Origin: Nemertoderma westbladi
Lineage: Eukaryota; Animalia; Xenacoelomorpha
DNA: 64,000 bases
NCBI GenBank assembly: GCA_032718475.1
Contig: JAUCBJ010009037.1
Coordinates: forward strand, 1-64,000
Direction: 5' to 3'
Shown here: positions 20,101 to 64,000 of the stretch, one piece after another
Layout of the letters: every line of letters begins with the position of its first letter
Numbering within the stretch: position 1 is the stretch's first letter
Notes under the pieces: generated by a model
Told to the model about the DNA's origin: nothing
The model's input: the letters and a program-made list of their open reading frames with translations, nothing else
Databases searched by the model: none
Translations under genes and position numbers: made by a program

Positions 20101-21344
20101 TGTAAAAGCTTTTGCGGATATAACAAGCCATTTTTCTCCGCAATATACTGTGTAGGTGTTTTAGCGGACATAACAAGCCATTTTTACCCACTATGTCTGC
20201 ATGTGTGCTTTAGCGAACATAACAAGCCATTTTCTCCACAATGCGCTTAATACTCTAAAAGATGACTCAGATGACGCAATCTGTCAGCTGATTTACTGCC
20301 AACGCGGAACCTGAATCTCTCTTTGTTCTTTGTTCGGATCAGCCAATCAGAGCGATTTTCACTTTGTGTTGGACAGTGCCTACAGAAACCCACGCAATTC
20401 AGTCAGTGTGTATCTTTTCTAAGCCCAGAACACCGGCTTAGGATTCTTCTGTACTTCTGTGGAAGTTTCAGACTTTTACCTAAACATCAGAAACATCAGA
20501 TGGCTTTGATTACAAGAACGTAAAACTATTAACAATTCAACTGCTGAATCATTGCTGAATCATACTTCATATCTGAATCACTGAAACAACGCGGCACTAC
20601 GCAACGCGATTCAACTACCGCATCACACCGCAATTCATGCATTGCTGCACATGGAACACTGCATAAGTGACACATACTGACTGTTCACCGCATTATTTGA
20701 TTCTGTTATTAATTGGTGTTATGTTGGTATATATTGCTGATATATTTGGAGAATACCGATGAATAATCATAAAACCCTCAATCTTCTTGATTACTAAAGG
20801 TTAGAGGAACAGGTTTACCGGTAGCAACTGCGACTTACATTATAGTGGTTTTTGTGTGAATTGAATGCTATTTCATAATCCCTACATGTGTCAGTTGCGA
20901 TCCTCCTTATATATGATCAAATTCAGTGACGGTCGGCAGATCAGTGCGCAGTAGTGTGAACTAGTGTGAAGTAGTGTGAAGGTTAATAAAGCATCTCCTA
21001 AAGAATGCGCTTTTTACGAAACTCAGTAGCCATCCAGTTGTGATTAGTATAAGTCATAACTCTGTTTTATACTTAAAGCGCCACGTCCTAAAGGAACTGT
21101 TAATATTCCCCCTGAAAGTAAATATATTGTCAGAGATTATATATTAACGATCAATCGAATAATACAGTAGGTCTACACTGCAATCACTATCAAAGCATCC
21201 GAATCCAGTCTCCCTTAACTGTGGGTGAATGGTCGCGCACAGGCTGGCTTCGGCTGATGTAACTTCAGTACATTAAATAATTGATATACAAAAAGACAAT
21301 TAAAATTGGCAGGTTAAACTGCTAAAGGTCTAAAAGCGCGAACA
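20101..21344 (+). mobile_element. Solo LTR (BEL/Pao family), 1244 bp
   Basis: TGTAAAAGCTTT...GCGCGAACA (TG..CA). 5-bp TSD CCATC at 20096-20100 and 21345-21349. Homologous to the LTR at 53174-54446. Confidence 0.92.
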
Positions 21345-21826: not shown

Positions 21827-23009
21827 TGTTCGCGCTTTCAGACCTTTAGCAGTTTAACCTGCCAATTTTAGGTGTCCTCTTGTTTATAAATCGACTTTAG
21901 CCTATAACAATTATTTAATGCACATGAAGTAACATTAGCCGAAGCCAGTCTATGCGCGATCATTCACCCACAGTTAAGGGAGACTGGATTCGGATGCTTT
22001 GACCTTATTGCGGTGTAGACCTACTGTATTATTCGATTGATCACTACTATATAATCTCTGACAATATTATTCACTTTCGGGGAAATATTAACAGTTCCTT
22101 TAGGACGTGGCACTTTAAGTATAAAACAGAGTTATGACTTATACTAAACACAATGGGATGGCTACTGATTTTCGTAAATAGCGCATTCTTTAGGAGATGC
22201 TTTATTATCTGTCACACTGCTGCATACGATTTCACACTGCTGCACACTGATCTGCCAACCGTCACTGAATTTGATCATATATAAGGAGGATAGCAACTGA
22301 CACATGTAGGGATTATGAAATAGCATTTAATGCACACTAAAACCACTGTAATATAAGTCGCAATTGCTACCGGCAACCGGTCCCTCTAACCTTTAGTAAT
22401 CAAGAAGATTGGGGGTTTTATGATTATTTATCGATATTCTCCCAATATAACAACATATCCATCAACATATAACATTAATAACAGACAGTAAACAGAAGTA
22501 CAATAATGCGGTGATATTCAGCCAGTATCGGTAGTACCGGTACCGCAGTTACAGGTGCAGTATCAAAGTTGTTCAGTCAGTGCAGACTGCAGATAATAGA
22601 TTTACGTTCTTATAATCAAGGCCGTCTAATGTTGGCCAAAGTCTGAAACTTATACCGAAGTACAGAAGAATCCTAAGCCGGTGTTCTGGGCTGTTTGGTG
22701 TTTGATACACACTAACTGAATTGCGTGGGTTTCTGTAGGCACTGTCCAACACAAGTGAAAATCGCTCTGATTGGCCGATCAGAACAAAGAACAAAGAAAA
22801 GCTCCACGCTGGCAGCAAATCAGCTGACAGATTTCTGAAACTACACTCTATTTAGAGTATTTGGCGTATTGCGGCATAAAATGGCTTGTTATGTCCGCTA
22901 AAACACCTACAGGGTACATTGCGGAGAAAATAGCTTGTTATGTCCGCTAAAACAACTAAACAGTTAATTGCGGAGAAAATGACTGGTTATATCCGCAAAA
23001 GCTTTTACA
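21827..23009 (-). mobile_element. Solo LTR (BEL/Pao family), 1183 bp, inverted relative to 20101-21344
   Basis: TGTTCGCGC...AAAGCTTTTACA on +. 5-bp TSD CCGGT at 21822-21826 and 23010-23014. Confidence 0.92.
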
Positions 23010-34102: not shown

Positions 34103-34752
34103 ACTGCGTCGAACCGGATTGAATGTGGGGGAGAGCCACGTTCAAGTGAGCGATCTTTAGCATATGGGTGCTATTAACGAGTTGTCTGTCATCCTTATAA
34201 ATTTTTTATCGCTAATAACTCGGTCATTCCTTGATGAAATTAAACGAAACTTGGTATGTATGTAGTATGTCAAAAGATTAGAAATAATCTGAAGTTTGGT
34301 AAAAAACAAACGAACGCAATGAGGCAAATTAAGGAGACAAGTATTGTGTTGAACGACCTCTGAATAATGAAAGACAACATGTTAATGGGGTGGGGCCCCT
34401 ATCAGCTAGGGCTAACTAAGGCTTTGCTCACTTCATGCTGCGCAAAGGTCCCACGAATGTGTCCCACTTCTGCCTGAGCCAGTTGAGCCAAAACGTCATC
34501 CAGTCATCATCCTTAACCTTCATAACGTCTATCAGCTGCCCGACCGAACCATCTTTCATTATCATTTTACACATAATTATTATTAAAGGGATAACAATAC
34601 AGAACTATGATGCTATTTATGAATTATATGATTTTATCGATAACATTTATTTAGAAAATTTTAGAACACGATTGCATTTTATGCATTTTATATTCGATAT
34701 ATTTTTAATTTATGGCCAAACACTGTACAGTATTACAACTTTGCTATTTATG

Positions 34753-35459
34753 CGGTCAGCCTAAACACCCAACTACACCCAACTTTCACCCAACTACACC
34801 CAACTTTCACCCAACTACACCCAACTTTCACCCAACTACACCCAACTTTCAGCCAACTACACCCACACAGTTCCACCCCACTACACCCAACTTCCACTGC
34901 ACTTCCACTTCCACTCTGGATCCAACTTACACCAAACTATACCTACTGTATGGCACCAAATATTTAACAAATTATTATTAAATCAACATCCCAAAATTAC
35001 AGCATCCATAATGAAACGCCACATCGCCAAGTGATCCACATTAAAGCCCGATGGGAAACCCCACTTGGGATCCGACTATGTAGCAACACACCTAAAGGGT
35101 GTGACATATTCCCATTTATTTTCATAATTGCAGGGCAGTGATGGCAAAATACAGTACGAGTACATGCAACTGTTAAAAGTTCATATATCAGCAATTCCTC
35201 AAAGAAGTTCAGAGTTTGTTACTTTAGGCTACATATTGTAATTTGTGGAATTTTGGTGCCATGCAGTATAGTTTGGTGTAAGTTGGATGCTGTTGGGTTG
35301 AAGTTGGGTGTAGTTGCATAGTTGGGTGGAAGTTTGGTGTAGTTGGGTGTACAGTAGTTGGTGAAAGTTGGGTGTAGTTGGGTGAAAGTTGGGTGTAGTT
35401 GGGTGTGGTTGGGTGTAGTTGAGTGAAAGTTGGGTGTAGTTGTGTGTTTAGGCTGAACC
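34753..35459. mobile_element. MULE-like MITE with ACCCAACTACACCCAACTTTC subterminal arrays
   Basis: CGGTCAGCCTAAACAC / GTGTTTAGGCTGAACC. 9-bp TSD CTATTTATG at 34744-34752 and 35460-35468. Confidence 0.88.
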
Positions 35460-44600: not shown

Positions 44601-45640
44601 AATTAGCTGTTATTACTACCGTTATTGTGTATGATTTAGCTGTTATTACTGCCGTTATTGTGTATGATTTAGATGTTATTACTGCCGTTATTGTGTGTGA
44701 TTTAGCTGTTATTACTACAGTTATTGTGTGTGATTTAGCTGTTATTACTACCGTTATTATGTGTGATTTAGCTGTTATTACTACCGTTATTGTGTGTGAT
44801 TTAGCTGTTATTACTGCCGTTATTGTGTATGATTTAGATGTTATTACTGCCGTTATTGTGTGTGATTTAGCTGTTATTACTACCGTTATTGTGTTTGATT
44901 TAGCTGTTATTACTACCGTTATTGTGTATGATTTAGATGTTATTACTGCCGTTATTGTGTGTGATTTAGCTGTTATTACTACCGTTATTGTGTTTGATTT
45001 AGCTGTTATTACTACCGTTATTGTGTGTGATTTAGCTGTTATTACTACCGTTATTGTGTTTGATTTAGCTGTTATTACTACCGTTATTGTGTATGATTTA
45101 GATGTTATTACTGCCGTTATTGTGTGTGATTTAGCTGTTATTACTACCGTTATTGTGTTTGATTTAGCTGTTATTACTACCGTTATTGTGTGTGATTTAG
45201 CTGTTATTACTACCGTTATTGTGTGTGATTTAGCTGTTATTACTGCCGTTATTGTGTATGATTTAGATGTTATTACTGCCGTTATTGTGTGTGATTTAGC
45301 TGTTATTACTACCGTTATTGTGTTTGATTTAGCTGTTATTACTACCGTTATTGTGTATGATTTAGATGTTATTACTGCCGTTATTGTGTGTGATTTAGCT
45401 GTTATTACTACCGTTATTGTGTGTGATTTAGCTGTTATTACTGCCGTTATTGTGTATGATTTAGATGTTATTACTGCCGTTATTGTGTGTGATTTAGCTG
45501 TTATTACTACCGTTATTGTGTATGATATAGCTGTTATTACTACCGTTATTGTGTGTGATTTAGCTGTTATTACTACCGTTATTGTGTTTGATTTAGCTGT
45601 TATTACTACCGTTATTGTGTGTGATTTCGCTGTTATTATT
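41654..45640 (+). repeat. 33-bp satellite, ~120 copies
   Basis: Unit GTTATTGTGTGTGATTTAGCTGTTATTACTACC with point variants. It is the source of the 465-880 aa repetitive ORFs. Confidence 0.97.
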
Positions 45641-48271
45641 TTTTCATTTGAATCAAATCCACATTCCATATACAACCGTAAGCTAAGTGACGATCAAGAA
45701 CTAAAACTCATTTTTTAAATAACTTCATTTGGCGACCTTCTTAATTTTGGTTCTAATTTTTAAAGTCTTCGATAACAATCTTGTACACTTTGAAATTGAT
45801 ATATTATTCTCACTGTGCTTACGATTCCTGCGTAGTTTTATAGTTAGAATTATTATTTACTGTAGTTGTTTTTATTACGAAAGTTCACTAATTCATTGAA
45901 AATGGTGTTAATTATTTATTACTGTAGTTCAAGTTCAGCTATGTGTATAAAGGGTAAAACCAAAATGTTGAAGCGAAAATTAATAACTAGTACGTTTTGG
46001 AACCCTTTATAAACTATTTCTCTGATTATTTATTCCGAAATTCCTCTAAATTATGTTGTTTGCAATTTTAATGATGAATTCGAAATGTACCTATCCCAGA
46101 TAGTAAATCTAAACGGTTTTATCAAAAATAGTTTCATTTCCCATCACCTCATTATTACCGGACCGGTACTTACACCTAAGCACCTGTAACCTGCATGCAG
46201 CACTTCAACCTGTTTGATTATGGTTCCATTTTTTATAAATCTATTGCTATTATTTATATGCTAGCTAAAAAAATACCCACCAGCAGTTATATTTACTTAT
46301 AATTTTATATGCAATTTTTTGTTCTATAATTTCTATCACTAAACGACATTAACGTCAGTTGAGTGATTATCATCAATAAACCGATAGATCAGGTGTAGCC
46401 ATCTGTTATAGGATTGTTGGGTAATTTATGTGCTGTTTTACAACGCGCAGTCAATAATTAAAATATTAAATGTGACAATTTTGGAATTATATATAGTTAC
46501 ATCATCGTGTGACTTTTCAGCCTTATGACCTGAGTGTATTTGTGTGCCGAGCGAGCGTAGTGAGTGAGTGATGTTCACGAAAATAAACGAGGGTCATTTA
46601 ATGCTGGATAGTTGTCCCCTTTTCATCCTTCGATGTACGTAATTTTCTTACATTATGCCAACTTATTGTGGTTCCGAATGCTTTATTAAACATTTTCATA
46701 TTGTAATTAATGAAATGAATGTCCATTTATCCAACTAATTCCTATCACTGTACGGTAAACAATCTTACACTTAGCATACAGATACAGCATGGCTATCATT
46801 CTCGCTAAGCTGATTGAGAATAATCACGACTTGTTCTAAAAGTTCGCTTTCCAACCTATTGGCCTCGACTTTGTAGCCTTAAGAGGATATCGCCAGAGCA
46901 TTGATAAGTTAACATTATGTAACAAAGTTTTTAATAATAATAATATTTATTAATTATAATATTAATTAATTAATCTATATAATATGTAATAACCAATCTG
47001 CAAATATTTTCATAGAATTTATAGTGCTTTTTATTGGCTGTGCTTTATGCTACGTGATTCCACTTGGGTTTCTGTGAATTTTAAATATATATTTTAAATT
47101 ACTTTTCAACCGCTTGCTTACTATATATATACATGGAAAATACAATTGACATCGAATATAGTTGACATTCATATTTTTTGTATCCTCATTCCTCCTTGTA
47201 GACTTCTTGTCTTTTTTCGTAGTTTTTTATATTTTTATGGTATTCCTTTCTATTTAGTATACATATCAGCATATATTTTCATATCAAAGTGTTCGCCGGT
47301 TACGCCAGAAAATATATGAATTAAAAATTTATTAAAATATATGTTAAAACCGATCACATAAACACCTATATCTGATCTTTATGATATCAATCAATCACAA
47401 TAATAGATGATAGGCCTACACAATTATAGATAAAATTTAATTGAAGAATAAGAAAAACTATATCATGATATCAAATATGATATCTATGTCCAGTCCATAA
47501 TAAATGTTTAGGTGATACCTACCCTAATCTATGTCAATAAAATGTAGGCCTACAAAGTTTATCTACTCGTATTCCCTTGTGCGCTTTAGTTAACTACTAA
47601 AGGACAGGTGGCGGGATTGGAAGCCGTTCTCAATGAAGTTCCATTAAACCGTATCCTTCAGTAGGTTGCCTCCATAGTCGGGAATATTCCTTGAGGAATT
47701 TTTTGAAGAACTGAGAGGTTAGGAAATAGCATGGAGATCGACAATGGTCGATGTTCATAGATCTTTAATCATTAAGGCTTTGAATTTCTATGTAACTAAT
47801 TAATTAATTATTTATGCCGGCAGACCCAGAAACAAAACCGCCCCAAAAAAGTTCAATCCACGTGGTTGCAATTACACAAGTTTATAAACAGGGTGATGCA
47901 GTCCTAGACATGGGGAACTTGACGCAAATCACATGTCTGCGAATTAACTTAGGGGAAGGAATTACAGTGGCGCGTTATTCTAAGCAAAACAATAAATGAA
48001 AGTCACTACCAAATTTTTTAGAGTAATCAACATGTTATTATTATATTAGCATATTATATGAACATATTATATTGCGTGTAGAGTACCCCACACTACCTTA
48101 TGCGCTAGGAGATTTATGGAAAGGGGGGGGGGGGGGGGGGGGGACTCGTCTTGCACACCGGGAACAGCACTAATGTATCAGTCCAGTTTTATTGATTTAT
48201 TGACATTTATTAATAATAATCAGTTGCAGTACAATGAATTTATTTGATTTTTAGGCCAATTTTATTGTCAT

Positions 48272-49771
48272 TTAGTTTCTGGGATGAAACTTAACCCTGA
48301 AGTCTGCAGGCCTTATGAACATGGTTCCTTGGACCTCTTTTATCGATGGTAATTTCCCATCGCTAGGGGGCGCTATTACGAAATTCTGAAGAAGATGACG
48401 GATAATAATCCTCATCTCGACTTTAGCCAACTGTTCCCCAAAGCAGATTCTTGGACCAAGGCCAAAGGGAATGAAACAATCTTTCTTGACAAATTGACCA
48501 TCTTTATCCAGAAAGTGTTTCGGGTAAAATGTTTCTGGTTTTTCCCATACCGTTGGGTTATGGAGAATCGACCATATGTTTCCCATTATCGTTGCATTTT
48601 CCGGTAGGTTGTAGGTTTGAAACGTGGTAGACGACACCAGCCTATGTGGTGCTGCGACCGGTCCGACACAACCGTACCTTAGCACTTCGTGCAATACCGC
48701 GTTCAAATAAGGTATCTTTCGGAACACCTCCGTGGATGGCTCTCCATCGCGGCCTATATACTCATCTAGAAGATCTTGACATCGCTTCTGAATGAAAGGG
48801 TTCTGTGCCATAACCAATACGAACCAACATATAGCGGACGTTGTGGTCTCTAAACCTCCGGAAAAGATATCTCGAATAACTGTTATCAGATTATCATTAG
48901 ATAGATGTTCTATATTTACCGGGGTGTTCGATTGTTCGACTCTCGCAACTTCTTTCAGATATCCATCTATCAAATCCTCGTCTTCTTCGTCGTAGTTAAT
49001 AGCAACGCGGTGTGCGTTAATTTGGAGTTGCAAAAGTTTGACTAACTTAACTTGGTTCATATAGACAATATATTGACTAGTTCCCGGAATATATCTACCG
49101 AAAGGAAACCTCCTGGCCCCGGGACCGCCGTTGTTGAGAACTGCTTGATTACAATCGCTGACCTCCCGAAAATACGGATCGTTTGAAGTAAAATGATGTC
49201 CGAAAACTATATGACATATAATGTTTGAAATGGTCAAAAATATCGGACGGAATGGGTCTAAACCCTCCCCGTCTAGTTTCTTTATTTCGTCGCCGAGGAT
49301 ATTAGCCTCAATTACAACGCGTTGTTCGAAATACGATTTACCCACTCCGATATTTCGAAGGATTTTCGAGGCCAGCTTTCTAGTAACTGTCCAACAGCTT
49401 CCATCATTAAAAATGATTCCTGTCATTTTCTTTTTGTCAGTTGCGTTTATTTTCGGTCTTCCAGAAAATATATTTGAATTGTCGACAAACGCCTTTTTGT
49501 AAACCTCGAATGAATTTAACACGAAGAGGCGTGTGGGTCCTAATTTAAGGGTTATGACGTCACTACGAAGTTGGTTAGACCAGCGAACCATCACCGAGCC
49601 AAAAATTAGTGGAGTCACATTCCAAAGAGAAATTACATTGCCTAGGAAAGGCAGACCTTTTTTGGAGGGTGGGTAATTAGTATCCTCTTTCTTCCGATGT
49701 TGTTTTGAGTAGAAGAATGCATAACTGAATGCAATTATTATAAAGATAATTACAGGTAATATAGCAACCAT
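48272..49771 (-). CDS. Cytochrome P450, clan 2-like, 499 aa, intronless CDS
   Basis: ATG 49771 starts an N-terminal TM anchor, followed by a PPxxxGLPFLGN hinge, WxxxR (WTVTR), I-helix GGLETT, ExxR (EVLR), PETFYPKHF and heme motif FGLGPRICFG. Confidence 0.93.
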   Translation of the reverse strand: MVAILPVIIFIIIAFSYAFFYSKQHRKKEDTNYPPSKKGLPFLGNVISLWNVTPLIFGSVMVRWSNQLRSDVITLKLGPTRLFVLNSFEVYKKAFVDNSNIFSGRPKINATDKKKMTGIIFNDGSCWTVTRKLASKILRNIGVGKSYFEQRVVIEANILGDEIKKLDGEGLDPFRPIFLTISNIICHIVFGHHFTSNDPYFREVSDCNQAVLNNGGPGARRFPFGRYIPGTSQYIVYMNQVKLVKLLQLQINAHRVAINYDEEDEDLIDGYLKEVARVEQSNTPVNIEHLSNDNLITVIRDIFSGGLETTTSAICWFVLVMAQNPFIQKRCQDLLDEYIGRDGEPSTEVFRKIPYLNAVLHEVLRYGCVGPVAAPHRLVSSTTFQTYNLPENATIMGNIWSILHNPTVWEKPETFYPKHFLDKDGQFVKKDCFIPFGLGPRICFGEQLAKVEMRIIIRHLLQNFVIAPPSDGKLPSIKEVQGTMFIRPADFRVKFHPRN

Positions 49772-49900
49772 GTTTCCAGAATTCCAGTGTTTCTTTTGAG
49801 CAGAAGGCCAAAAACAGGAAATCATAGAGTTCCACCTAGAATGCTGTAACACTTTTTGTGGCTGATATGAACCCAAATACGCAGAACTGCATTATGTCTC

Positions 49901-51609: not shown

Positions 51610-53173
51610 ATGTAATGTAATACAGTAGCATACTTTAAATAATTCCTCACTAGGCCTACATATTACAGTGGTCACAAGAGCTGGTTGATTACAATTTAGC
51701 CAAAATTGTGCCTTGCATTTAATTACCCGATAATGATAATACTGTAGGCCTATGTACTGTACTGTCTGTACAATTGTCTTCCTACATACCTTTTATTGTT
51801 ATACATTAGAAGGCGAAACCTTCGCGACTCTTATAATTTGGCATCGGCTTACCATTAATTAAATAATCAAACGTAAAGGGATAAATAATACAGTTTAGTA
51901 GAATGGTCACAAAAAGGGGGTGCGGGTATCGTATGTCTTAACATTGTGGGGAGTAGGAGCGAGGAAGATTTTGCAGGTTTTCTTTCATCTTTAATGGCTT
52001 AATGCCAAACAAATACAATGAGGTGGGGAGGGGGGGGGGACTTGTCGCAAATCCCTCCTTGGCGAATTAATATCTCCTCGCTTCAATGTTAAATTAAAAT
52101 TATCAATTTAGGGAAAGGAGCAGGTTACATTGGCATTGGCACGTTATTCTAACAAAAACAATAAACTAAAGTTAATAGAACAGGTTACAACTTTTTTGGG
52201 GAGTAATCAGCTGTTATTTGCGTCGAATTTCCCTAGTGGAGCTGGAGTGGGGTGAATTTTTACTAATCATGTTTCTGTACAGGGCTGGATTAAGCCAAAT
52301 TGGCGCCCGGGTTTAAGCGCGACAATAAAAAATTGTAGGTCCTACATAGTAGTGATCGGAATACACCATGTCCTGGAATTATAGTGTTGTAATTCAGTGA
52401 CACGGCCACCCCCAATATCTTTCTCTAATCTTGATCAGATTGTATGAAATTTGAAACAGAAATACTGTACTGTAGTTGCACCCCCCTCGTTGCTCGACCT
52501 TAGTGGGTGCGCAACAATTTTTATTTTTGCTTTCAATCTTTAGTTACAAGAGTTTGATATTGCACCAGACATATTGCAGAGCTATTCCTTAACCTATCCA
52601 CGTCGCCCTTTCATTGGAAAACTCAGTATTCCCATCGCTTTTCATTTTGAGAAAAACGCCAAAGACTTTGGAAGTTCTGCGATTGATGACCAAAGCAATG
52701 AATTCAACCAAAGATTTGTCAGAACCAAGCAGGTTGTTTTTCTAAATTTGTTAGTGAAATTTATAGGGCCTAGATTTCTAAATTTTTTAAACTTGTTTAG
52801 AAATATTTCTAAAACTAAATATTGAAAATAACAAATTTAAAATTAATATATTACTTTACAGAGTTTTAAATAGAAACACATGAATCAGAATTTAACATTA
52901 ACTCCTGTAATATCAAATACACTCATTTGTGGTATTGTTTTTACGTAGATTGACATAGACTGTATACAATCATCACAGTCTAGGGGTGTTTCACTGACAT
53001 TCCCGTAATTTAAAGTCTTTTTAGAGCATTTTTCAAGGAAACATGAAAAATAATAGCTGAGGGTTGATTAGGTACAGTTAGCCTAGGCTGAGTGTGAGTC
53101 GGTCATGTGGAAAGGGACCAAGTCTGACCGGGTGGTAATCCTACCGTGAACCTTAGGCATTCAGCGCGACCTG

Positions 53174-54446
53174 TGTACGCGCTTTTGAAGACCTTTAGCA
53201 GTTTAACCTGCCAAAATTTATATGTCTTTTGGTTTATAGATATACTTTAGAAGATGACAAATATTTAATACCAATAAACACAACATTAGCAGAAGCCAGC
53301 CTAGTGCGCGTCCATTCACCCGCTGGATAATCCCGGGAGACTGGATTCTGAGGGCTTAAATTATTATTGCAGTGAAGCTTACTGTATTGTATTATTCGAT
53401 TGATCGTTAATAATTAATTTCTGACTAATATTATTTACTTTCGGGAAATATTAACAGTTCCTTTAGGACGTGGCGCTCTATTTAAATAGACAGAGATATG
53501 ACTTATACTAATCACAACGGTAAGTCAGTAAGGCTTAAGATTCACGTATGAGGCGCATTCTTTAGGAAATGCTTAGTTATCAATCACAATCATGCACACT
53601 ACCGGTAACACACAATACTGCTCACTAATTTGCCGACCGTCAATGAATTTTATCATATATAAAGCGAACAGCAATTGACTCATGTAGGGCTTATCAAATA
53701 GCATTAAATTCACTACAAACCACAACAATATAAGTCGCAATCGCTATATATAACCCGTCTCTCTAACCTGTAGTGTATCAAGAAAATTGGGAAATTTGGG
53801 TTCTTTATATATGTTCTCCAAATAATATTCAACCAAACACAAAAGTAAATGGCAGTATAATAATGTATATTGAACCGATAATACAAGAATAGAAACAAGT
53901 TGATATAAATTGATATATGATGTATTATGAATTGATAACAGTCATACGCTCTATAATTTAAGCCTACTAATGTTTCTTCTAAAAGTATGAAACGAATTGA
54001 TTCTAGAGCCGTTGTTCCTGGCCTAGACAGCAATAACAACAAAGTATCAAGAAAAAACAGTAAGACTGAACACTCTCCTTATGATCGACCGAAAAGCTAC
54101 ACGTCGACAGGAAAAATTGCTCTGATTGGTTCAAGCCAAACAAAGAACCATGCGTCCAATGGCTGTTTCCATGTCAGCAACCAGCTGTTAGATGTCGTAA
54201 TATGAATCATCACGGCTAAGCTATGAAAGGTATTTGTCGCATTGCAGGTTTTTTGCCTTACCATGTCCGCTAAAACATGTATATAGCAGAATGACTTTTA
54301 TGTCCGTTAAAACACCTGTAAAGGTACCTTGCGGGCGAGGGGAATATATATACAGTTAGAGAACCCTTTTTAGAGTATTCCAGCGCCTGGGGGGAAACTG
54401 GATTGCGAAGCAAAAGGGCCAGTTATATCCCACAGAAGCTTTTACA
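53174..54446 (-). repeat. 3' LTR of the BEL/Pao element (1273 bp)
   Basis: Minus strand TGTAAAAGCTT...GCGCGTACA, preceded by purine-rich GGGAGCGG (PPT-like, 54447-54454). Homologous to both solo LTRs. Predicted TSD ACCTG at 53169-53173. Confidence 0.88.
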
Positions 54447-54524
54447 CCGCTCCCAGAAAATGGGATTTGAGTCTATACAATATACAAAATCACAGTTTCT
54501 AATATACGTAAATACTCTAAACAG

Positions 54525-57500
54525 TTAGTCTTTCTTGCGCGGACGGCGTTTACGCAGTTTTTTAAAGCTAGCCAGAGTCCTTTTCTCTTTGGGGCGAGCC
54601 ACTTTACAAGGAGGGCTATAACTCCTGGGTGAAGGGTACAATATGATTGCATCAGAGGGTGTAGGATTATGGTCGGTGTATCCGCCAGTCGAAGTACCGG
54701 GTTGATTGACATCAACGTCAGGTGAGAGGGGTCTAACGGCTTTGAGAGCTCGTTTCAAGACAGCCGCTCTTACGGGTCCTTTACGAGTGGTCTGAACGAG
54801 GGCCGTGGGTGGACCATAGGCAGTTAGAAACTTCCGGGGTTTAATGGTCCTTTCCAACTCGCGTTCGCGGGCTCGGTATTCGTAAGGCCGTCGATGTACT
54901 TCCTGCAACTCGGGGTGTGAGTTAACAAACAAGTCTCCATAGTCCGGATCCTGACGGATATAATTGATTAAGTTATAGGAATGAAGGTCGCTATGATTAA
55001 CACTCCTGAGAAATTTGCGTACGAATTTAGTTGAAATACATTCTCCGACGCGCTTCAGTAGCTCGTAACTTGATATGCGTGATTTCTGTTCAACAGAAGC
55101 GAATAGATAAGGATGGAACGCATAAACTCCTTCGTAAGCGCGTCCGGGATAATAGCGATGGCGCGAATCACAATGTAAATCAGCGTTCGCTTCCCAAGCT
55201 CTGATGTAACGCAGTGTGATCATTTCATCTACGCTTTCCAAATCGTGATTAAAAGGGCAGTCGAAACTAGCATGTCCCTTTAGTTGACAATGGTGACATT
55301 GAGTCATAAATTGAGGGCAAACCGCAAAGATATGCAGGTTATTGAGTCTGCAATATGCGCAATAAATTTCCATAGTCGGTTGTTCTTGGAAATAGGAACA
55401 GCGGACGTTGGTGTCCATGGGCGTATCGTGGTCTCTCGATGCGCATAACCGACAACGTTGCCTAGAAACATAGTTGGCATGGCGATAATCGTACGCAGTG
55501 AGACACTGTGGGCCTTGATACCATTCTATGATGTAATCGTTGTCGCTGGTCCGGGGCGCGATAGGCTGAATCTCTTCAGATTCTAGACATATTGGTTCGT
55601 CTTCCAAGTGCATAGCTGAAGTGGGCGTGTCTGTCTCTTCAGGTGGACCTATCGTCTGAATTTCCACGACAGAATAACCTGTGGGAATTCGAGGTCTTTG
55701 TATAACTGAGGAGTGCAAGTTCGATATACAAATCTCTTGGAAAATGGCGAATCCAGCGCTATCCAACTTCTCTGCAGCTGAGTTTCTTAGGCTGAGTTTG
55801 GTCAAAGCGCGGTCTTTAAATTGGCTATCCACGTTGCGGAACGGGGTTAAAAATCTCCGGAAACATTCGAAATGGATGAATTTATTATGTTCATCTAGCT
55901 TAGCGAGTTTGGTCCCAAGTATTAATGGATGGGCGCGTATAGTACGACTGCACACATCAGCTAGCCAACCGGCAAGTGCGGTGTTTTCAAAGATCGTGTA
56001 TATAGCTAACGAGGGACGGAGTGGAACACTCATGAAGCTATACACGGCGCCAGGTGCGGTCAATGGTCCATCAAAGTATAATCGAGAATAATGGTCTCCG
56101 TATACCTGTTGATAGTTAATGGGATTTCCGACTTTGAAATTCCATCCGTATTCCTGAAAGGCAAGATGTCCGATGGAAGTTCGTTGCACCTTGGTAATGT
56201 TGCTAGACGTATTAGCATACATGGTGCGGAAGAAACCTCGACCTTCTGCCCAAGGAGCAATCAGCTGAGTATCAACGAAAGGGTATGGAATGTCCTCCAT
56301 ATTCCGAAAGTTGTTTTGTAGATCTCCATAAACAGCTGAGCCGATTTTAAGGATTCTTTCATTGAACAACATCTCGAGTACGGGCTGGGGTAACATCGAT
56401 CCATCGATGCCCATGGCCGGTTTGCGTTCGGTGTCAATGACGTAACGCTGCGCGAGTTCGAATTGTCCATGTCGGAGATTCTTTTGTGTTTCGGTAAGAG
56501 TTTCAAAAGAATAATCAATCAAGTCGGAACACGCTCGAGTAAACACGTGGGTAGAACCAGCTAATCCGCGGATGTGGATCATGCGCGTAGTTCCTAGCTC
56601 TCCGACCGGAACGCTACCTTCATTATCGTAGGTGACAACTCCATACATCTCAATAACATTAAGAGTTTCATTCCACTCCTTGGTGGCGTTTTCTAGGGTC
56701 ATCCCTACTGGATGCCACAAAGTGGCGCATTGGTTAGCGTCAGGGAGATCACTATACTTCATATGCCGAGTGGTATATGTCTCCACATTTCCATATCTTT
56801 GTATTTTCTCTTCTTCAAATAATACATCTAGATTCCAATGGACTAATCGAGTTTTAATAAATCCATCGAGGTTATAAGGAGGTTCTATATCTTTCTCGAT
56901 TCGAGAAATGTTATATGGTTTTCTAAATGAGTTAATGTCTAGAGGATTTATTAGTGGTAGAAACTTTAAATCATGTGTCGGGTCTTCTGGTTTTACCATA
57001 TAATATTGAGTCAGATTAACGTAATAAGGGTGGTCTTTAATCCCGTAAAACGAGTTCTGTAAGGGTCTAGCGCGTATGTTGACATCGTGTACCATACGAC
57101 GGACAAGATCCGCTCGATTGTCCGGAGGTTCAACGAGTATACCGTCAACACGAGCGGCCTCGATCGGCGGACGCTGTAACATAGGGGCGTCAGCGATAAG
57201 GTTTTGCGATCCTGTACTGATATCAACCGGTTGAGGTTGTATCGTCGCGAAGAGTTTGTCTCCGAAATGTGGAATCATAGAGGGATGACGAACGGTTTTA
57301 GAGTAGAGGTCCGTCATGAGGATTTGAGCTTCAGGTTGGGCTAAAGCGGCTTCTTCTCTTTCTTCCAGTTTCGTGTGTTTCTCTTCGATTAGATTTTCTT
57401 CCGCTTGTCTCTGTAAGCATTCATCTAAAAATTCTTGTAGAGAATACGTGCGTCCAAGCTCGATGTCTTCCTCGAGGTTTTGAATTTCTCTATCGAACTG

Positions 57501-58730
57501 TGGCAAGGCTAACTCCTTCACCGATTGGACTTGTTGTTGTAATTTACGTTTCTCTAAACAATCTTGTGTTCCCTTTCCGATTTTCTGTCGAATGGCGTCT
57601 AAAGCGTTTCTTATAACGCTCTCCTCGACTTCCGTGGCGGGTTGTATCGGGTTTAATCCTGGACGATTGTAAGGATCAAAGGGTAATATTAGCTGCCCGC
57701 GTCCCAATCCGGCTAAGTAGGATGGGCGGATGTCTAACGAACCCACTACCGGAGCACCACCGATTAATTGTTCGGGTAACACTAAGTCTTTGAACAGGGA
57801 ATATAGTTCGGGAGGATCAGTGATACTGTTAGGATCAAGAGTTTGAGGTCTCACGAGGGAATGAGGAGGCCTGACCGAGTATTCCGGAACTCTGATCATG
57901 GGTTTATTCAGTGATCGTTTAAGACGAGCGATCGTGGGTGGTACGTCGAACAGGTTTCGCTCGAAACTCCCGTAAGTGTAACGCGTAAAACTATGTTTAG
58001 CGCAACGTCTCCGCGGATGTTTATGTCTTTCAATTTGTTGGTTGGGTCTAGGGCATTCGTCGCAATAATACCAAAGACGCACGTCCTGTAGAGGAAACGC
58101 GGGTGATCGTTCTCCAGTTTTGCAGTATTCTTCCATTTGTTCAAAACTATCCGGGATAACAGGTAGTGGACGATCGGCAGTAAGATACATCATAGTGAAA
58201 TAGAGCCGTTTGAGTTCTACTACAGGGTCGTGATGGATACCTTGAGGATATCGAGTCTCTAAGTTCTGCTGACTAGCGACGTTGAGATAGGTTTCTCTCA
58301 AAAACTCTAAGTATTCGTTGAAGTCGATGCGTTTATCCGGTTCTTCAACGTTTTCTCTTTCCAGTCTATTACGAATAGAATTTTCGTGATCTATTCTCGG
58401 TTTATCGTTACGACTCCGCTGGGTATGATATTTAAATAGAACCATTTCCCTTTCTGTATCTACATCGTCCGTATCATGTAAATCGATAGGATGGCCGGTC
58501 ATTAGGAAGTCCATATACGTACCATTACGATTCGTATAGCGAGTGGTGAATTTTCGATAGTCCAATTCACGCGCAAGTTGCTCTTGGGACATCGGCGGTT
58601 CGATATAACGACCATCGTCCTCCGTAATGGTTGGATCGGCTTCACCGCGTATTAAGCTATCCACAAATGCTTGTAAAGGTAGAGTATATCGCTCCCTAAT
58701 ACCAAGATCATCTTCTATTAACTCCGTCAT
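54525..58730 (-). CDS. BEL/Pao extra ORF (1401 aa): DEDDy-like 3'-5' exonuclease domain plus CCHC zinc knuckles
   Basis: Uninterrupted 4.2-kb ORF between pol and the PPT. ExoI VVTYDNEG (D702/E704), ExoII LFNERILKIGSAVYGD (D803), FVDTQL, ExoIII PLRPSLAIYTIFE (Y911/E915). Three CCHC-type motifs at aa 1093-1158. Basic C-terminus. Confidence 0.8.
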   Translation of the reverse strand: MTELIEDDLGIRERYTLPLQAFVDSLIRGEADPTITEDDGRYIEPPMSQEQLARELDYRKFTTRYTNRNGTYMDFLMTGHPIDLHDTDDVDTEREMVLFKYHTQRSRNDKPRIDHENSIRNRLERENVEEPDKRIDFNEYLEFLRETYLNVASQQNLETRYPQGIHHDPVVELKRLYFTMMYLTADRPLPVIPDSFEQMEEYCKTGERSPAFPLQDVRLWYYCDECPRPNQQIERHKHPRRRCAKHSFTRYTYGSFERNLFDVPPTIARLKRSLNKPMIRVPEYSVRPPHSLVRPQTLDPNSITDPPELYSLFKDLVLPEQLIGGAPVVGSLDIRPSYLAGLGRGQLILPFDPYNRPGLNPIQPATEVEESVIRNALDAIRQKIGKGTQDCLEKRKLQQQVQSVKELALPQFDREIQNLEEDIELGRTYSLQEFLDECLQRQAEENLIEEKHTKLEEREEAALAQPEAQILMTDLYSKTVRHPSMIPHFGDKLFATIQPQPVDISTGSQNLIADAPMLQRPPIEAARVDGILVEPPDNRADLVRRMVHDVNIRARPLQNSFYGIKDHPYYVNLTQYYMVKPEDPTHDLKFLPLINPLDINSFRKPYNISRIEKDIEPPYNLDGFIKTRLVHWNLDVLFEEEKIQRYGNVETYTTRHMKYSDLPDANQCATLWHPVGMTLENATKEWNETLNVIEMYGVVTYDNEGSVPVGELGTTRMIHIRGLAGSTHVFTRACSDLIDYSFETLTETQKNLRHGQFELAQRYVIDTERKPAMGIDGSMLPQPVLEMLFNERILKIGSAVYGDLQNNFRNMEDIPYPFVDTQLIAPWAEGRGFFRTMYANTSSNITKVQRTSIGHLAFQEYGWNFKVGNPINYQQVYGDHYSRLYFDGPLTAPGAVYSFMSVPLRPSLAIYTIFENTALAGWLADVCSRTIRAHPLILGTKLAKLDEHNKFIHFECFRRFLTPFRNVDSQFKDRALTKLSLRNSAAEKLDSAGFAIFQEICISNLHSSVIQRPRIPTGYSVVEIQTIGPPEETDTPTSAMHLEDEPICLESEEIQPIAPRTSDNDYIIEWYQGPQCLTAYDYRHANYVSRQRCRLCASRDHDTPMDTNVRCSYFQEQPTMEIYCAYCRLNNLHIFAVCPQFMTQCHHCQLKGHASFDCPFNHDLESVDEMITLRYIRAWEANADLHCDSRHRYYPGRAYEGVYAFHPYLFASVEQKSRISSYELLKRVGECISTKFVRKFLRSVNHSDLHSYNLINYIRQDPDYGDLFVNSHPELQEVHRRPYEYRARERELERTIKPRKFLTAYGPPTALVQTTRKGPVRAAVLKRALKAVRPLSPDVDVNQPGTSTGGYTDHNPTPSDAIILYPSPRSYSPPCKVARPKEKRTLASFKKLRKRRPRKKD

Positions 58731-60348
58731 ATCTGCTATCTGAGTTTATTAATATCAAATAAGTTTGTATTTAGGCGAGCGGGCGTCGCTGCCTACTTTC
58801 TTTGCCCCCGGACAGTGGGATTCTCAGCGCCGATGTACCGTCGTCGCGGTGTTTACGCCAACATGTAGCAACAGCACGACAACGATAACCGGCACAAGTC
58901 ACTCCACTGTCCGTCCCAAAGGCTTGGATCCACTTAGGTTCTTTCTATAGGAGAGTTGGGCTATTTTTACAATTGCGACTAGCTACTGTAAACATACTTT
59001 AGCAGTAACATTCACCTATAAACGCACAAATTCCACACAACTGTCAACAACTGCACACACACAGGCCATTTGTCCGTTAGTCAGTGCCTTCCAGAATGTC
59101 ACTTTATTACTGTGTATCCTTGGATACTAACAGTGTGCTATATTCTATGCTATGCAATGGGACAAGCTTTCTATTGTTCTTTTAACTTGCTTCTAATTCT
59201 AGCGTGGGTGTTGCTATGGTGACATTATGGAATGCTAGCGGTAGAATTAGAGTAATTCTCATGCATACAGATCTGGGATGCTATTTAATAATAATTCTTT
59301 AATTGTCAATATCCTCTTTATGCATGATTTTGTTAATTTTATCGGCTATTGACTATATGTTGGAGATTCTCGCACTCTAATACACTCAATAGGATGAATC
59401 TCCGCTCCCATGATCTATTAATTAATGGAATTTTGGGAATGTTATAAATTGTACAAAATGACAATTTATGAAATTCATTTAAAATATGAATTTAAATTTA
59501 TTCCCGTGAATTTTATTATTTGATGTTAAAATTGACACAATTTGATTCCAGAGCAGGTCTGGGGACATAGGATCTTTAATTCTATAAAATTGTCTTTTAA
59601 GAGTATCGGTAAGTGCTGCGATATCTTAATTGACTAGAAATTTTAAAGGATCTGAATTTTACAGAATTTAATAAATATTAAATTAATATTTAAGATGGGC
59701 ACCGATTTATTCCAGAACTTGTCTGGGGACGTTAACCACTGATTCTAGAATTGGTCTTTCAAGTATATCGGTGGGTGCCGCGATATCTTAATCGACTAGA
59801 ATTACAGATGGTCAAAAGGTTTAACAGATTTATTTGCGTTTTACGCTACTGTTATAGGGACATCACGCTACTATATGTATTATTATATATGGTATGAGAG
59901 CAATATCGCACGAAGCAATGTCAGTGTGAAGAGGCAAGTCGTTTCCAAGGTCTACCCAGAGCTTGGCTTAGCCGAGACACGAGGATCTGAACTTTGCATT
60001 CCTAATACTCTGCCTACCAATAATACTTGAATATAGTAGTGGCTTTATTGTACTTTAAGAAGTACGGACATTTCATCTTACTGTAGTCACGTATTTATAA
60101 TATGATACGGACAGTAAGGAAAGAGAAAATAATTATTTTCTCGCCGTCGCACTAAATATATATTATAAGTAATTACGTACGTAATAAACACTAATATATT
60201 GCACTAATCTACTAAATAATCACTAAAATAACATTCTACTAAATAAAATTGAATAAAAACGATTATAATAAAGTACATAATAAAGTTCACATATAAAAAT
60301 ATAACAAAATAGATAAAATAATATAGTCATACACCCACTCCAGACGTA

Positions 60349-63300
60349 TCACGTTAGGGAGTCCCTAGATGTTTGAGGAATTAGGGAGGTGGTCGTGGGA
60401 AGAGTGTCTTGCCTTCCATAGTTTCCAGAGAGTTCCCTGTCTCTTTCCAGTAAACATAAACGACCAACTGGGCGATTGAGTTGTTGCGTCTCAAAGATGA
60501 TGCCTGGTTTCTTGAAGTTACGCCGCATGACGATGAGTTCTACTGAGCGTACTAAACCATCATCTGAAATGTGTGTCTCGATGATACGACCTGTCTGCCA
60601 CCGTTTACGTGGGAGGTCTGGATCTACAATAAGCACCATATCTCCGGTGCTGACGTTTTCTTGCTGCGCAAACCACTTAGTTCGAAGTTGTAGCGTGGAC
60701 AGATAATGTTTCTCGAAATGGTCAGCGAAACGACGGGATAGCAACTGCATAAGTTGCCAAGTTCGACGGCAGTATTCGTCTCCGTCGGCAATCTCCGATC
60801 GTGGGAGCATGGCTACGGGTTTCTTCAGTAGGAAGTGCGCGGGTGTTAGCGCTTCCAGGGAATCGGGACTCGATGAGACTGGCATAAGCGGTCTCTCGTT
60901 GAGATAGGCAGCGATTTCCTCCATTAACGTCCGCAAAAGTTCGTCGGTGAGATACGCGCGGCATGGCACTATAAAGTGAAATGCGGTTTTGACACTTCGA
61001 ATTAATCTCTCCCAACTTCCTCCCCACCAAGGGGCGTCGGCAGCGTTGAAGGTCCAGCTAGACGCTGTTATCCTTAGCTGGTCGTCCACCTGTCTTTGGT
61101 TCCAGTCCTTCACGTAAGCCTGTATCTCGTTGTTGGCACCTATGAAGTTCGTTCCTTTATCCGATCTCATGGTATTACTCGTCCCGAAGCGAGCGATCTG
61201 TCGTCGTAAACTTAAGACGAAGCTGTTAGTAGATAGATCGTTCACCATATCGAGATGGATGGCTCTACAAGTCATGTACACGAAGATGACACACCATCTC
61301 TTGACTATAGTCCTCGCACGATATACTTCAATAGGGCCAAATAAATCTACACCAGTATTAGTAAAAGGTGGTTCATAGAAGCTTACTCGTTCCCTAGGTA
61401 ATTCTGCCTCTCGCTGTGTTAAAGGCCTACTGAATGCTTTCCTACAGGGTATGCAGTTCCTAAGAACTTGGTTCAGAGCTCTACGGGGTTTATCAAAATA
61501 ATAGCGAGTTCGAATTTCGCTAAGAATTCGTTCTCTACCAGCATGGTAAAGTTTACCGTGAACGTCTACAATCATCTTGATTTGTACTTCAAGATTTCTA
61601 ATAAGTATGGGGAATTTGGTGTCAAAGGATAAGGGCGCGTTGGTGAGTCTTCCTCCAACACGTATTAACCCATCTATCATTGTGCTCGAGAATCGATCCC
61701 TTAAGCGCATCTGTGGATTTCTCAACAACAGGAAGTACTTTTCGGAATCCTCATAGCATTGCAGGAGTCTCAGTATCTGTTTATTTGTTTCTTCATACTC
61801 CTGGTGACTAATTTTCTCTTTTAGAAAACGATCAGATATCTTATATTTGGGTAAATTCTTAATAACATGAACTTGTGCAGATGTCAATGGAGCGTGATCA
61901 CTAGTGGTCTTCGTCCTGGAGTAGTGATGATGAAAACATCGTCTTAAAAATGTGACGGCTTTACAGAGCCGATTCCAGGAACTGTAATGATGCATTGCTC
62001 TCTGCAGCATGGGTGAGATTCCTTGCGAGACGTCTGGTATTCCAGATTTCCAATCTCTATCTCGAATTTCCACAACAGACTTATTTGTGTTGAGGGATTG
62101 TGGATCCGAAACATCATTCCCGGAAGTGTGTAATACGGATAGATCGATAGTCGGTTTAAATAACTTTGATTTACTCGCCCGGGTTTTAGGTTTGACGGTC
62201 TCCGCTCCCTTGGCTTGTCTAATCTCTGCCGTAGTAAGGTGAGGAGGCCATTCATCCTCTTCCTTGCTCAGGAAGTCGGGTCCACCCAACCAATCTGGAG
62301 TATCTATCAGTTCCTGTGGAGTTGCTCCCCTGGAGGCGATATCGGCTGGATTAATCGTACCAGGGCAATGTCTCCATTGATCTATCTTTGTGCGACTAAG
62401 AATAATAGCTACTCGGTTAGTAACAAAAACGCTAAACTGACAGACTTCATTGGTGAGATACTCCAACACGAGTAAAGCGTCGGTCCAATAAACCGTTTTC
62501 TCCAGTGGATAGTCGATTTGTTCCGTTACGTTCCGGCCGATGGCTGTAGCGTATAAAGCCGCCTTTAACTCCGCTCGAGGAACCTTTAACTTGTTGTTAA
62601 TCAATGCCTTAGAGGTAACCAAGGCGACCTTGATTCCATCCGGAGTTTCGACTCGCAGATATGCTACTATACCTATTCCCATATCGCTGGCGTCTCCAAA
62701 CACATGGAGTTGATAGGAATACGTAGGAAGAACATGGCCAAAATATGCACGGGAAATTATAAAGTTCTCGATGGCAGGTAGAGAATCTTCCCATTTCATC
62801 CATTTCTTCAACAATTCTCCCTTAAGCGGATCGTCCCATGAGTGGTTTTCAAGCCACATCTGTTGTACTAAACTCCGAGCAATCAATATAACTGGGCTAA
62901 TAAATCCCAATGGGTCGAAATAAGTGCTCAGGATACTTAAACAAATCCGCTTGGTCCGAACTGGATTATCTCGCTGTTTTAACTGAAAAAACAGGATGTC
63001 TCTTTCAGTGTCCCACTTCAAGCCTAGCGTTTTGGTTTCAGGAAGATCGTCCTTTATTAAGTCTAGGTCTTTCGCTCCGCGATCTTCTACCGGTATGGCT
63101 ACCAGAAACTCACGGGAGTTGCTAGTGAATTTCGTCAGTCGAAATCCACCTCTTTTCAATCACTCTACCGTTCCTTTCGCGACAGCTATGGCTTCTTCTA
63201 CTGATGAAAGGGACCTTAAATTGTCGTCCATGTATATATTGCGTTTTATGTTGTCCATCACTTCTTTGGAGAAGGAGTCTCGGTTATCATTCGCAGTGGT

Positions 63301-64000
63301 TCGCACCACGGAGCAGGCGTTGGAAGGGCTTGATATGATCCCAAAAGCCTGGATGGTCATCCAGTACTCTACCGGTTTCTGGTTGAGGTCTCCTTCAGGC
63401 CACCACAGAAATCTCAGGCTGTCTCTATCTCTATCCAGCGCCTTGACTTGTAAGAACATTCCTTCGATATCAGAGGCGAACGCGATGGAATATTGTCTTA
63501 ATCTTAATAGTATTCCCAACAAAGATTGGAGTAAGTTGGGTCCTGGTAACAACTCGGAATTGAGGGATTGGCCCATATATAGCGCAGAGCCATTAAATAC
63601 GACTCGTACTTCATGGGGTTTACCGGGTTTGGGAACGTAATGATGTGTTAAATAATACGTTCTCTCAGTCACTGGTGTTCCTTCCGGTACTCGCTCCGCG
63701 TATCCCTTTGTTATAAATTTCTTCAGCTGAGTTTGGTACATTTCTTTCGCTGAAGCATTAGCTGTAAGTCGTCGATATAATTGAGCGATTCTTTTCTCTG
63801 CCAAGGGTCTGTTATTTATAAATCTAGGTTCTCGTTTTCGAAATGGTAGGCCGATTTCATACCTACCTTGGTCCTTTAAAAAACGTGTAGTTGTTTCCTG
63901 GATTTGCTTGGCTCTTTCTTCTTCTATCGATAGAGCCTTATCATATGAATTGGGCTCTACCAGTTCCTGAGTAAAGAATCGTACAGCTAGTTCGTCCCGA
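60349..64000 (-). pseudogene. BEL/Pao pol (RT, RNase H, integrase) with one in-frame stop
   Basis: GRYEIGLPF, RVVFNGS, DIEGMFLQV, YMDD; LHVFGDAS, PRAELKAA, YWTD; HGKLYHAG..CIPC, GVDLFGP, SDKGTNF, WWGGSWERL. TGA at 63160-63162 separates two same-frame ORFs. Confidence 0.92.

What the first reader, a model, noticed from the sequence alone, without database searches (positions are those of the whole stretch)
54525..58730. BEL/Pao retrotransposon carrying a large intact exonuclease/zinc-knuckle gene in the env slot
Seen: a stop-free 1401-aa ORF in the same orientation as pol, ending ~70 bp before the PPT/3' LTR, so it lies inside the element. It has no obvious signal peptide or TM helix, so it is not an envelope. 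Residues ~695-920 match the DnaQ-like DEDDy (RNase D/WRN/EXD/Mut-7/Egalitarian) motifs in the correct order: VVTYDNEG; MIHIRG..THVF; LPQPVLEMLFNERILKIGSAVYGD; FVDTQL; SIGHLAFQEYG..K; PL..LAIYTIFE. Established: relatives of this family (Mut-7, Nibbler, EXD1) act in small-RNA/piRNA pathways. From memory, smaller DEDDy extra ORFs are reported in a few LTR elements (bdelloid rotifers, a nematode BEL-type element), so the idea has precedent, but this 1400-aa multi-domain architecture looks unusual. Inference: an element-encoded RNA-processing or anti-silencing factor, or a proofreading/RNP helper.
Basis: partly seen in the sequence, partly recalled or inferred. Interest (0 to 1): 0.88.

Follow-up and report, generated by a model that had tools for sequence, protein, structure and literature searches.

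The report
BEL/Pao retrotransposon with RNase D-like gene
An intact 1,401-residue gene with an RNase D-type RNA-trimming domain and three zinc knuckles lies between a BEL/Pao retrotransposon's polymerase gene and a long terminal repeat; it probably belongs to that jumping gene and may help it blunt the host's small-RNA defence, which is untested.

Summary
Observation confirmed. A stop-free 1401-aa ORF (54525-58730, minus) lies between a BEL/Pao pol and a purine tract plus a 1273-bp LTR. Two solo relatives in the window, each with a 5-bp target duplication, show that this repeat is an LTR. The family is multi-copy, and 16 of 21 classed differences in the ORF are synonymous (0.29 expected). Residues ~680-935 are a DEDDy domain of RNase D type: a profile of the ORF and its only homologue (P0001) hit one stretch in 27 of 28 bacterial matches, and 15 of 15 fetched were RNase D. 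D702, E704 and D803 are conserved; the fourth acid is probably E915 (DEDE). Three CCHC knuckles follow, as in trypanosome RNase D. It is not an envelope gene. Open points: the 5' LTR lies outside the window, and an LTR-like stretch right after pol leaves about 20-25% for a composite of two elements. Activity and target are untested. DEDDy third genes are published for rotifer gypsy-like and Penelope-like elements; I found none for BEL/Pao. Verdict: new variant of a known kind.

The parts
53174..54446 (-). 3' LTR, 1273 bp, TGT...ACA
   Evidence: About 80% identical over aligned columns to two solo copies that have 5-bp target duplications; shuffled control far lower
53169..53173 (-). Candidate 3' target-site duplication (CAGGT)
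   Evidence: Five bases after the LTR end; its partner would lie beyond the window
54447..54454 (-). Purine tract (GGGAGCGG) abutting the LTR
   Evidence: Sequence
54525..58730 (-). Third gene, 1401 aa, intact
   Evidence: 16 of 21 classed differences synonymous
55926..56693 (-). DEDDy 3'-5' exonuclease domain of RNase D type (aa ~680-935): D702, E704, D803, probably Y911 and E915
55257..55454 (-). Three CCHC-type zinc knuckles (aa 1093-1158); the third is canonical CX2CX4HX4C
   Evidence: Pattern; alignment to P0001 knuckles beats 1000 of 1000 shuffles; P0001 knuckles match HIV nucleocapsid and Air2
56781..58730 (-). N-terminal 650 aa of unknown fold; a Cys/His cluster at aa 223-246 and a charged, possibly coiled-coil stretch at aa ~373-465
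   Evidence: No Pfam match; pattern and heptad scan only
54528..54593 (-). Basic C-terminal tail (KKLRKRR at aa 1390), possible nuclear signal
   Evidence: Sequence; function inferred
58731..60348 (-). 1618-bp non-coding spacer (35% GC) with an internal ~163-bp duplication
   Evidence: covered in all bins in runs X3, X4, X5
60028..60341 (-). LTR-like stretch after pol: purine tract + TGT (60341-60331), TATA (60099), AATAAA (60049), ending TTCA; probable internal promoter or relic LTR
   Evidence: Sequence; no likeness to the 3' LTR above shuffles; no loose end listed at 60028
60349..63159 (-). BEL/Pao pol: end of RT, RNase H (Peptidase_A17), integrase, DUF5641
63160..64000 (-). RT part of pol (YMDD at 63234), same frame, ending in a premature stop; runs off the window
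20101..21344 (+). Solo LTR of a related subfamily, flanked by CCATC on both sides, inside a LINE
21827..23009 (-). Second solo LTR, flanked by CCGGT on both sides, inside the same LINE

Best explanation
The ORF is an intact gene for an RNase D-type exonuclease domain followed by three zinc knuckles, lying between a BEL/Pao pol and an LTR; it is likely the element's own third gene, likely read from a promoter in the spacer, and its protein would bind RNA through the knuckles and trim 3' ends, most likely of host small RNAs or their precursors, so weakening silencing of the element. Shown: the ORF, the LTR, the multi-copy family, the synonymous excess, the domain homology. Inferred: one pair of LTRs around pol and ORF (about 0.75-0.8), own promoter, retained activity with a DEDE site (about 0.65), and a host-facing target.
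For: Domain: the two-sequence profile hit 28 of 201 proteobacterial genomes at E<=0.05; 27 of 28 hits cover one stretch (about aa 782-830), and the 15 best, all fetched, are RNase D. NCBIfam RNase D E 0.014; Atlas feature hits to DNA_pol_A_exo1 clusters at 0.92 and 0.91. D702, E704, D803 are invariant in alignments of 27 and 25 sequences. P0001 has the same two parts in the same order. Trypanosome RNase D joins this domain to four CCHC fingers that hold the RNA while it trims guide RNAs (PMC7797062, passages). Inside the element: contigs bridge pol stop to spacer (X4 record 16, X5 record 24) and spacer to ORF start (X5 record 17, X6 records 25, 26); no loose end at 60028 among those listed, whereas X4 did show the boundary of the true LTR. 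Host-facing role: DEDDy ORFs are shared by LTR elements and Penelope-like Terminons, which replicate differently (PMC5408684); arenavirus DEDD nuclease is described as suppressing innate signalling (PMC7968707). The gene is separate from gag-pol and has a basic tail.
Against: No activity, expression or target data. The fourth acid binds a catalytic ion directly in trypanosome RNase D and is not Asp here; a multiple alignment with bacterial RNase D puts the last motif 14 residues earlier, with Ser in that place, and the bacterial set does not discriminate between registers. Pfam finds no exonuclease in the ORF. A profile of stand-alone bacterial DEDDy proteins did not score the ORF (hhalign probability 2%). 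Contigs of three runs end at 60027-60028, exactly at the end of the LTR-like stretch. In rotifers DEDDy ORF3s showed no clear link to copy number and no significant departure from neutrality (PMC5408684, section 4). Mature piRNAs are 2'-O-methylated and resist 3' trimming (recalled).
Confidence: 0.4

Rival explanations
1. Replication helper: the protein would be packaged through its nucleocapsid-like knuckles and trim the element's own primer, RNA or cDNA 3' ends.
For: Knuckles of the homologue match retroviral nucleocapsid best. Dada DNA transposons carry a DEDDy domain proposed to process transposon 3' ends (PMC3706591). Four contigs of run X4 continue past the LTR end with a shared sequence that, read by eye, has no tRNA-type start and is complementary to a stretch inside the LTR, as in self-primed BEL/Pao elements noted by earlier, unchecked scan findings.
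Against: Far larger LTR elements (Ogre 16-25 kb, Burro over 30 kb) are described without mention of such a domain in the passages read (PMC6431247), so size does not call for proofreading. Most BEL/Pao elements have only gag and pol. The same ORF type occurs in elements with different replication.
Confidence: 0.2
2. Catalytically dead or weak RNA adaptor, like Egalitarian or EXD1: the fold would only bind the element's RNA and carry or shield it.
For: Fourth catalytic Asp is replaced (Glu or Ser, by register). Long N-terminal part with a possible coiled coil. Egalitarian structures, one bound to I-factor transposon RNA, are among the fold matches, though that model was guided by an RNase D alignment. 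PMC5408684 calls EXD1 and Maelstrom inactive DEDD derivatives.
Against: D702, E704, D803 and an acid at the fourth place are kept in both the ORF and P0001 at only 28% identity, which is expected of a metal site.
Confidence: 0.2
3. Composite locus: an ordinary BEL/Pao element ends at its own ~306-bp LTR (60333-60028) and sits in or next to a second LTR element that carries the ORF.
For: Purine tract + TGT 15 bases after the pol stop, then TATA, AATAAA and a CA end. Contigs of X4, X5 and X6 end at 60027-60028; no listed piece bridges 60028 with 31 letters on both sides (32 of 5524 pieces shown). Three contigs of diverged relatives keep the purine motif after pol while leaving the alignment there (read by eye). 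The 1273-bp LTR and the size exceed the family's stated range.
Against: No loose end at 60028 among the 21 listed (264 not shown), although X4's list holds trivial entries and X4 flagged the true LTR end. No step in depth in X5 over 60072-60327 against pol and spacer. X3 holds ORF and pol contigs at like divergence (about 85-88%) and like depth (5,700-14,000). No solo copy of the stretch in the window.
Confidence: 0.2

Closest known systems
DEDDy ORF3 of bdelloid rotifer LTR retrotransposons Juno and Vesta, and of Terminons (PMC5408684)
   Same: RNase D-like DEDDy gene after pol, in the env position, no membrane helix, altered catalytic tetrad
   Different: Those hosts are Juno/Vesta LTR lineages (gypsy-like, recalled) and Penelope-like elements, not BEL/Pao; their tetrad is DEED, here probably DEDE; here 1401 aa with three knuckles and 650 unknown N-terminal residues; low copy there, apparently high copy here. 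Direct sequence comparison was not possible.
Trypanosoma brucei RNase D (TbRND; PDB 7c42; PMC7797062)
   Same: RNase D exonuclease domain followed by an array of CCHC fingers in place of HRDC domains
   Different: Cellular mitochondrial enzyme of under 400 aa with four fingers and a full DEDD site; likeness here is of architecture, common descent of the fusion not shown
Bacterial RNase D (TIGR01388; PDB 1yt3)
   Same: Best sequence match, over the Exo II region; Exo I and Exo II acids align
   Different: Two insertions of about 20-30 aa, no HRDC domains, fourth Asp replaced
Belpaoviridae (BEL/Pao) with env-like third genes, such as Tas and Cer7
   Same: Pol domain order, Pao-type RNase H region, LTR, purine tract, third gene after pol
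   Different: Third gene is a nuclease-type protein, not a glycoprotein; over 10.8 kb in the window alone against 4.2-10 kb stated; LTR 1.27 kb against 0.2-1.2 kb
P0001 (unnamed 648-aa protein, one ENA contig of 9449 bases)
   Same: DEDDy domain with the same motifs and final Glu-Asn, then three knuckles
   Different: No long N-terminal part; genomic context unknown, so it is not shown to be in a retrotransposon

Membership tests
Belpaoviridae (BEL/Pao) | Pol order RT, RNase H, integrase with BEL/Pao signature domains | tested here: met
   YMDD, Peptidase_A17 E 3e-36, Integrase_H2C2, DUF5641 in that order
Belpaoviridae (BEL/Pao) | LTR with TG...CA ends, target duplication, purine tract before the 3' LTR | tested here: met
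Belpaoviridae (BEL/Pao) | The same LTR at both ends of gag-pol and the third gene | not testable with these tools
   5' end outside the window; no genome held; contigs too short
Belpaoviridae (BEL/Pao) | tRNA primer-binding site after the 5' LTR | tested here: inconclusive
   Outside the window; four X4 contigs beyond the LTR end suggest, by eye, no tRNA site
Belpaoviridae (BEL/Pao) | Gag with nucleocapsid and capsid domains | not testable with these tools
   Beyond the window end
Env-like third gene | Signal peptide and membrane helix | tested here: not met
   Highest 19-residue hydropathy 1.2, none at the N-terminus
DEDDy 3'-5' exonucleases (RNase D group) | Sequence homology to the DnaQ-like domain | tested here: met
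   27 of 28 unbiased hits on one stretch, 15 of 15 fetched are RNase D; TIGR01388 E 0.014; hhalign 94.7% against a set chosen by those hits
DEDDy 3'-5' exonucleases (RNase D group) | Exo I D-x-E and Exo II D | tested here: met
   D702, E704, D803 invariant
DEDDy 3'-5' exonucleases (RNase D group) | Exo III Y-x3-D | tested here: inconclusive
   Y911-x3-E915 by the P0001 register (score 25 against 0 for the next); Y897-x3-S901 by MAFFT. Asp in neither.
DEDDy 3'-5' exonucleases (RNase D group) | RNase H-like fold | tested here: inconclusive
   Single-sequence model failed (pLDDT 30.5). The model with an RNase D alignment (pLDDT 59) matches DEDDy structures at Z 11.5-12.5, rmsd about 4, but is circular.
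DEDDy 3'-5' exonucleases (RNase D group) | Metal-dependent 3'-5' nuclease activity | not testable with these tools
   Needs an assay
Rotifer retroelement DEDDy ORF pool | Groups with Juno/Vesta/Athena ORFs in a tree | not tested
   Those sequences were not returned by any search

The most novel reading that the evidence does not exclude
A large, successful BEL/Pao family carries its own RNA-decay enzyme, an RNase D core fused to RNA-gripping knuckles, as a nuclease-type suppressor of piRNA/siRNA silencing. It would be one member of a pool of exonuclease-knuckle accessory genes that unrelated animal retroelements have taken up again and again.
Probability: 0.25. Interest if true: 0.85.

Novelty: new variant of a known kind. 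Interest (0 to 1): 0.58.

Why it matters
Third genes of BEL/Pao elements are described as env-like and of unknown function (PMC8742986). A nuclease-type gene there extends the rotifer finding to another retrotransposon group and, unlike the rotifer case, shows signs of purifying selection in an abundant family. If it acts on small RNAs, it is a testable transposon-encoded counter to small-RNA silencing in an animal. The 650 N-terminal residues match nothing in the libraries searched.

Tried and rejected
No whole genome held. Word-index homology searches: whole ORF, 0 of 3772 candidates; P0001, only itself of 7996; two-sequence alignment, 0 of 4136; all limited in length range. The full HMMER search used aa 81-1280 only and gave 1 hit. 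PDB sequence searches found nothing for the ORF, the profile or pol. The one metagenome locus, L001, is a histidine kinase, a false hit. Viral contigs, phages and plasmids gave nothing useful. PHROGs: only weak unnamed hits. Single-sequence fold failed. The part after the knuckles is not significantly like P0001 (947 of 1000 shuffles score as well). Rfam: no match in 53000-60500. The 3' end of the post-pol stretch folds no better than shuffles (z -0.43) and shows no pairing with either LTR-like sequence. No convincing terminal repeats around the ORF, so an independent DNA-transposon insertion was set aside. The idea that 53174-54446 is a foldback arm was rejected: the two inverted copies are separate insertions with their own target duplications. 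No RNA holder listed; run X4 is only guessed to be RNA, so expression was not tested. Two papers on nematode Cer elements were not held. No complex was predicted.
Full report
1. Observation. The minus strand holds a stop-free ORF at 54525-58730, 1401 aa from its ATG, on the same strand as a pol gene at 60349-64000. Chance would give such a frame at about 1e-33. Pol carries Peptidase_A17 (E 3e-36), Integrase_H2C2 and DUF5641, so it is BEL/Pao type. This copy's pol has one in-frame stop at 63160-63162, after YMDD.

2. The downstream repeat is an LTR. Seventy bases after the stop come a purine tract and a 1273-bp unit, TGT...ACA (54446-53174). Two relatives lie at 20101-21344 and 23009-21827, about 80% identical to it over aligned columns. 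Each interrupts a LINE and each is flanked by its own 5-bp duplication, CCATC and CCGGT. No convincing terminal repeats surround the ORF itself.

3. Multi-copy and selected. Six public runs hold the stretch or part of it; one may be the window's source. In the 4 runs laid first, all 30 bins of 52500-64000 are covered, with tens of thousands of variant contigs in X1-X3. Run X3 holds ORF and pol contigs at about 85-88% identity with depths of 5,700-14,000, against 25 for a flank contig. That suggests a sister subfamily of hundreds of copies, but depth is not a copy count. The tool showed 40 of 1450 differences; 18 fall in the ORF and 13 are synonymous, against 0.29 expected from the observed mutation spectrum (P 2e-4). 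Three further ones are all synonymous, giving 16 of 21. In pol, 8 of 12 were synonymous. This is a small sample chosen by support, not a dN/dS.

4. One element or two? Fifteen bases after the pol stop stand another purine tract and TGT, then a TATA box (60099), AATAAA (60049) and a CA end (60028): the outline of a ~306-bp LTR, unrelated to the 1273-bp one. For a boundary: contigs of X4, X5 and X6 end at 60027-60028, and none of the 32 pieces shown (of 5524) bridges that place with 31 letters on both sides. Against: none of the 21 loose ends listed (264 not shown) lies there, though X4's list includes trivial entries and X4 did flag the true LTR end at 53174 with 4 contigs; depth in X5 shows no step over most of the stretch; contigs bridge pol into the spacer and the spacer into the ORF. 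I put one element at 0.75-0.8, with the stretch serving as a relic LTR or internal promoter. An earlier unchecked finding (e1-9949686) reads a similar post-pol stretch in another genome that way. The 5' LTR is outside the window and no genome is held.

5. The protein. Pfam and PDB sequence searches miss the domain. A HMMER search of 1.84 billion representatives with aa 81-1280 returned one protein, P0001 (648 aa, E 1.3e-5). It aligns at 28% over the domain and also has three knuckles (alignment beats 1000 of 1000 shuffles). Its context is unknown. A profile of the two, run over 201 proteobacterial genomes in six frames, matched 28 at E<=0.05; 27 cover one stretch in frames of 372-461 aa. The 15 best were fetched and all are RNase D (E 1e-37 to 4e-71); 9 of the 10 hits in genomes shared lie inside listed PF01612 matches. 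NCBIfam RNase D scores E 0.014 at aa 782-827. Atlas features give DNA_pol_A_exo1 clusters at 0.92 and 0.91, behind an unnamed cluster at 0.93, with shared-feature counts on the low side; for P0001 the top lead (0.86) is a euglenozoan exonuclease + CCHC cluster. A profile of the 16 RNase D domains scores the ORF 24.4 bits against at most 0.6 among 200 shuffles, but that set was chosen by the ORF's own hits; 20 stand-alone DEDDy proteins did not score it.

6. Active site. D702, E704 and D803 are invariant with RNase D. For the last motif, P0001 matches the RNase D spacing with Glu in place of the final Asp, and the ORF aligns to it at Y911 and E915 (score 25, next 0). MAFFT with bacterial sequences prefers Y897 and S901, and the bacterial set alone does not decide. 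I favour DEDE. In trypanosome RNase D the fourth Asp binds a catalytic ion (PMC7797062, passages), so activity is open. Folding from the single sequence failed. With an RNase D alignment the model reached pLDDT 59 and matched DEDDy structures (Z 11.5-12.5), which shows compatibility only, as the alignment imposed the fold. The first 650 aa and the last 325 aa match no Pfam family at E<=0.1.

7. Mechanism. The nearest working model is trypanosome RNase D, whose CCHC fingers hold RNA while the exonuclease trims it. I infer a separately expressed RNA-binding 3'-5' exoribonuclease. Its target is most likely host-facing, because DEDDy ORFs are shared between LTR elements and Penelope-like Terminons that replicate differently (PMC5408684), and viral DEDD nucleases include one that suppresses innate signalling (PMC7968707, passages). 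Counter-silencing gets 0.4 overall; replication helper, dead RNA adaptor and composite locus get 0.2 each. None is tested.

8. What is known. PMC5408684 (passages, sections 3.1 and 4) reports DEDDy ORF3s with a DEED tetrad in rotifer Juno and Vesta elements and in Terminons, without shown activity or selection. PMC3706591 (passages) reports a DEDDy domain in Dada transposases. PMC8742986 (whole text) gives BEL/Pao as 4.2-10 kb with gag, pol and sometimes an env-like gene; the part in this window is already 10.8 kb. PMC3118150 has no occurrence of 'exonuclease'. Passages of PMC6431247, PMC5718144, PMC6338049 and PMC554778 were also read. Searches listed no BEL/Pao element with an exonuclease gene; I judged most listings by title and abstract start only. 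The library lacks most subscription papers, Repbase and GyDB, and no supplements were read. A nematode Cer precedent is recalled only. Earlier unchecked scan findings describe Rrp6-like, knuckle-bearing third genes in gypsy-type elements of other genomes (e1-7470659, e1-7470661), so the theme recurs.

9. Verdict. A real, selected, RNase D-type accessory gene most likely inside a large BEL/Pao element: a new variant of a known kind. Interest 0.58.

Noticed in passing
window 20101-21344 and 21827-23009: Two solo LTRs, 90% alike, inserted in opposite directions 482 bases apart in one LINE; they mimic a foldback element. Their target sites (CCATC, CCGGT) and that of the full element (CAGGT) look alike, which may hint at a target preference.
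   Followed up: partly
window 53174 (LTR end) and 53365-53385: Four contigs of run X4 continue past the LTR end with a shared sequence that by eye pairs with a stretch inside the LTR: a possible self-primed BEL/Pao element.
   Followed up: no
window 55604-58361 and 60486-62199: Internal deletions of 2756 bases in the ORF (runs X1, X2, X4) and 1712 bases in pol (runs X1, X2, X3) occur in other copies.
   Followed up: no
window 41640-45720: Array of about 122 copies of a 33-base unit, open on both strands in one frame.
   Followed up: no
window 48272-49891 (-) and 37661-39424 (+): Uninterrupted host-type ORFs: a cytochrome P450 and an SH3-PX-BAR sorting nexin.
   Followed up: no
window 15774-19058 (-): A second LINE with endonuclease and RT frames and an unmatched 308-aa frame upstream.
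   Followed up: no
window 2589-3836 (-): Tcp11-family ORF.
   Followed up: no
window 24122-29092 and 33092-36611: Further long inverted-repeat pairs, 94-96% complementary; not examined.
   Followed up: no
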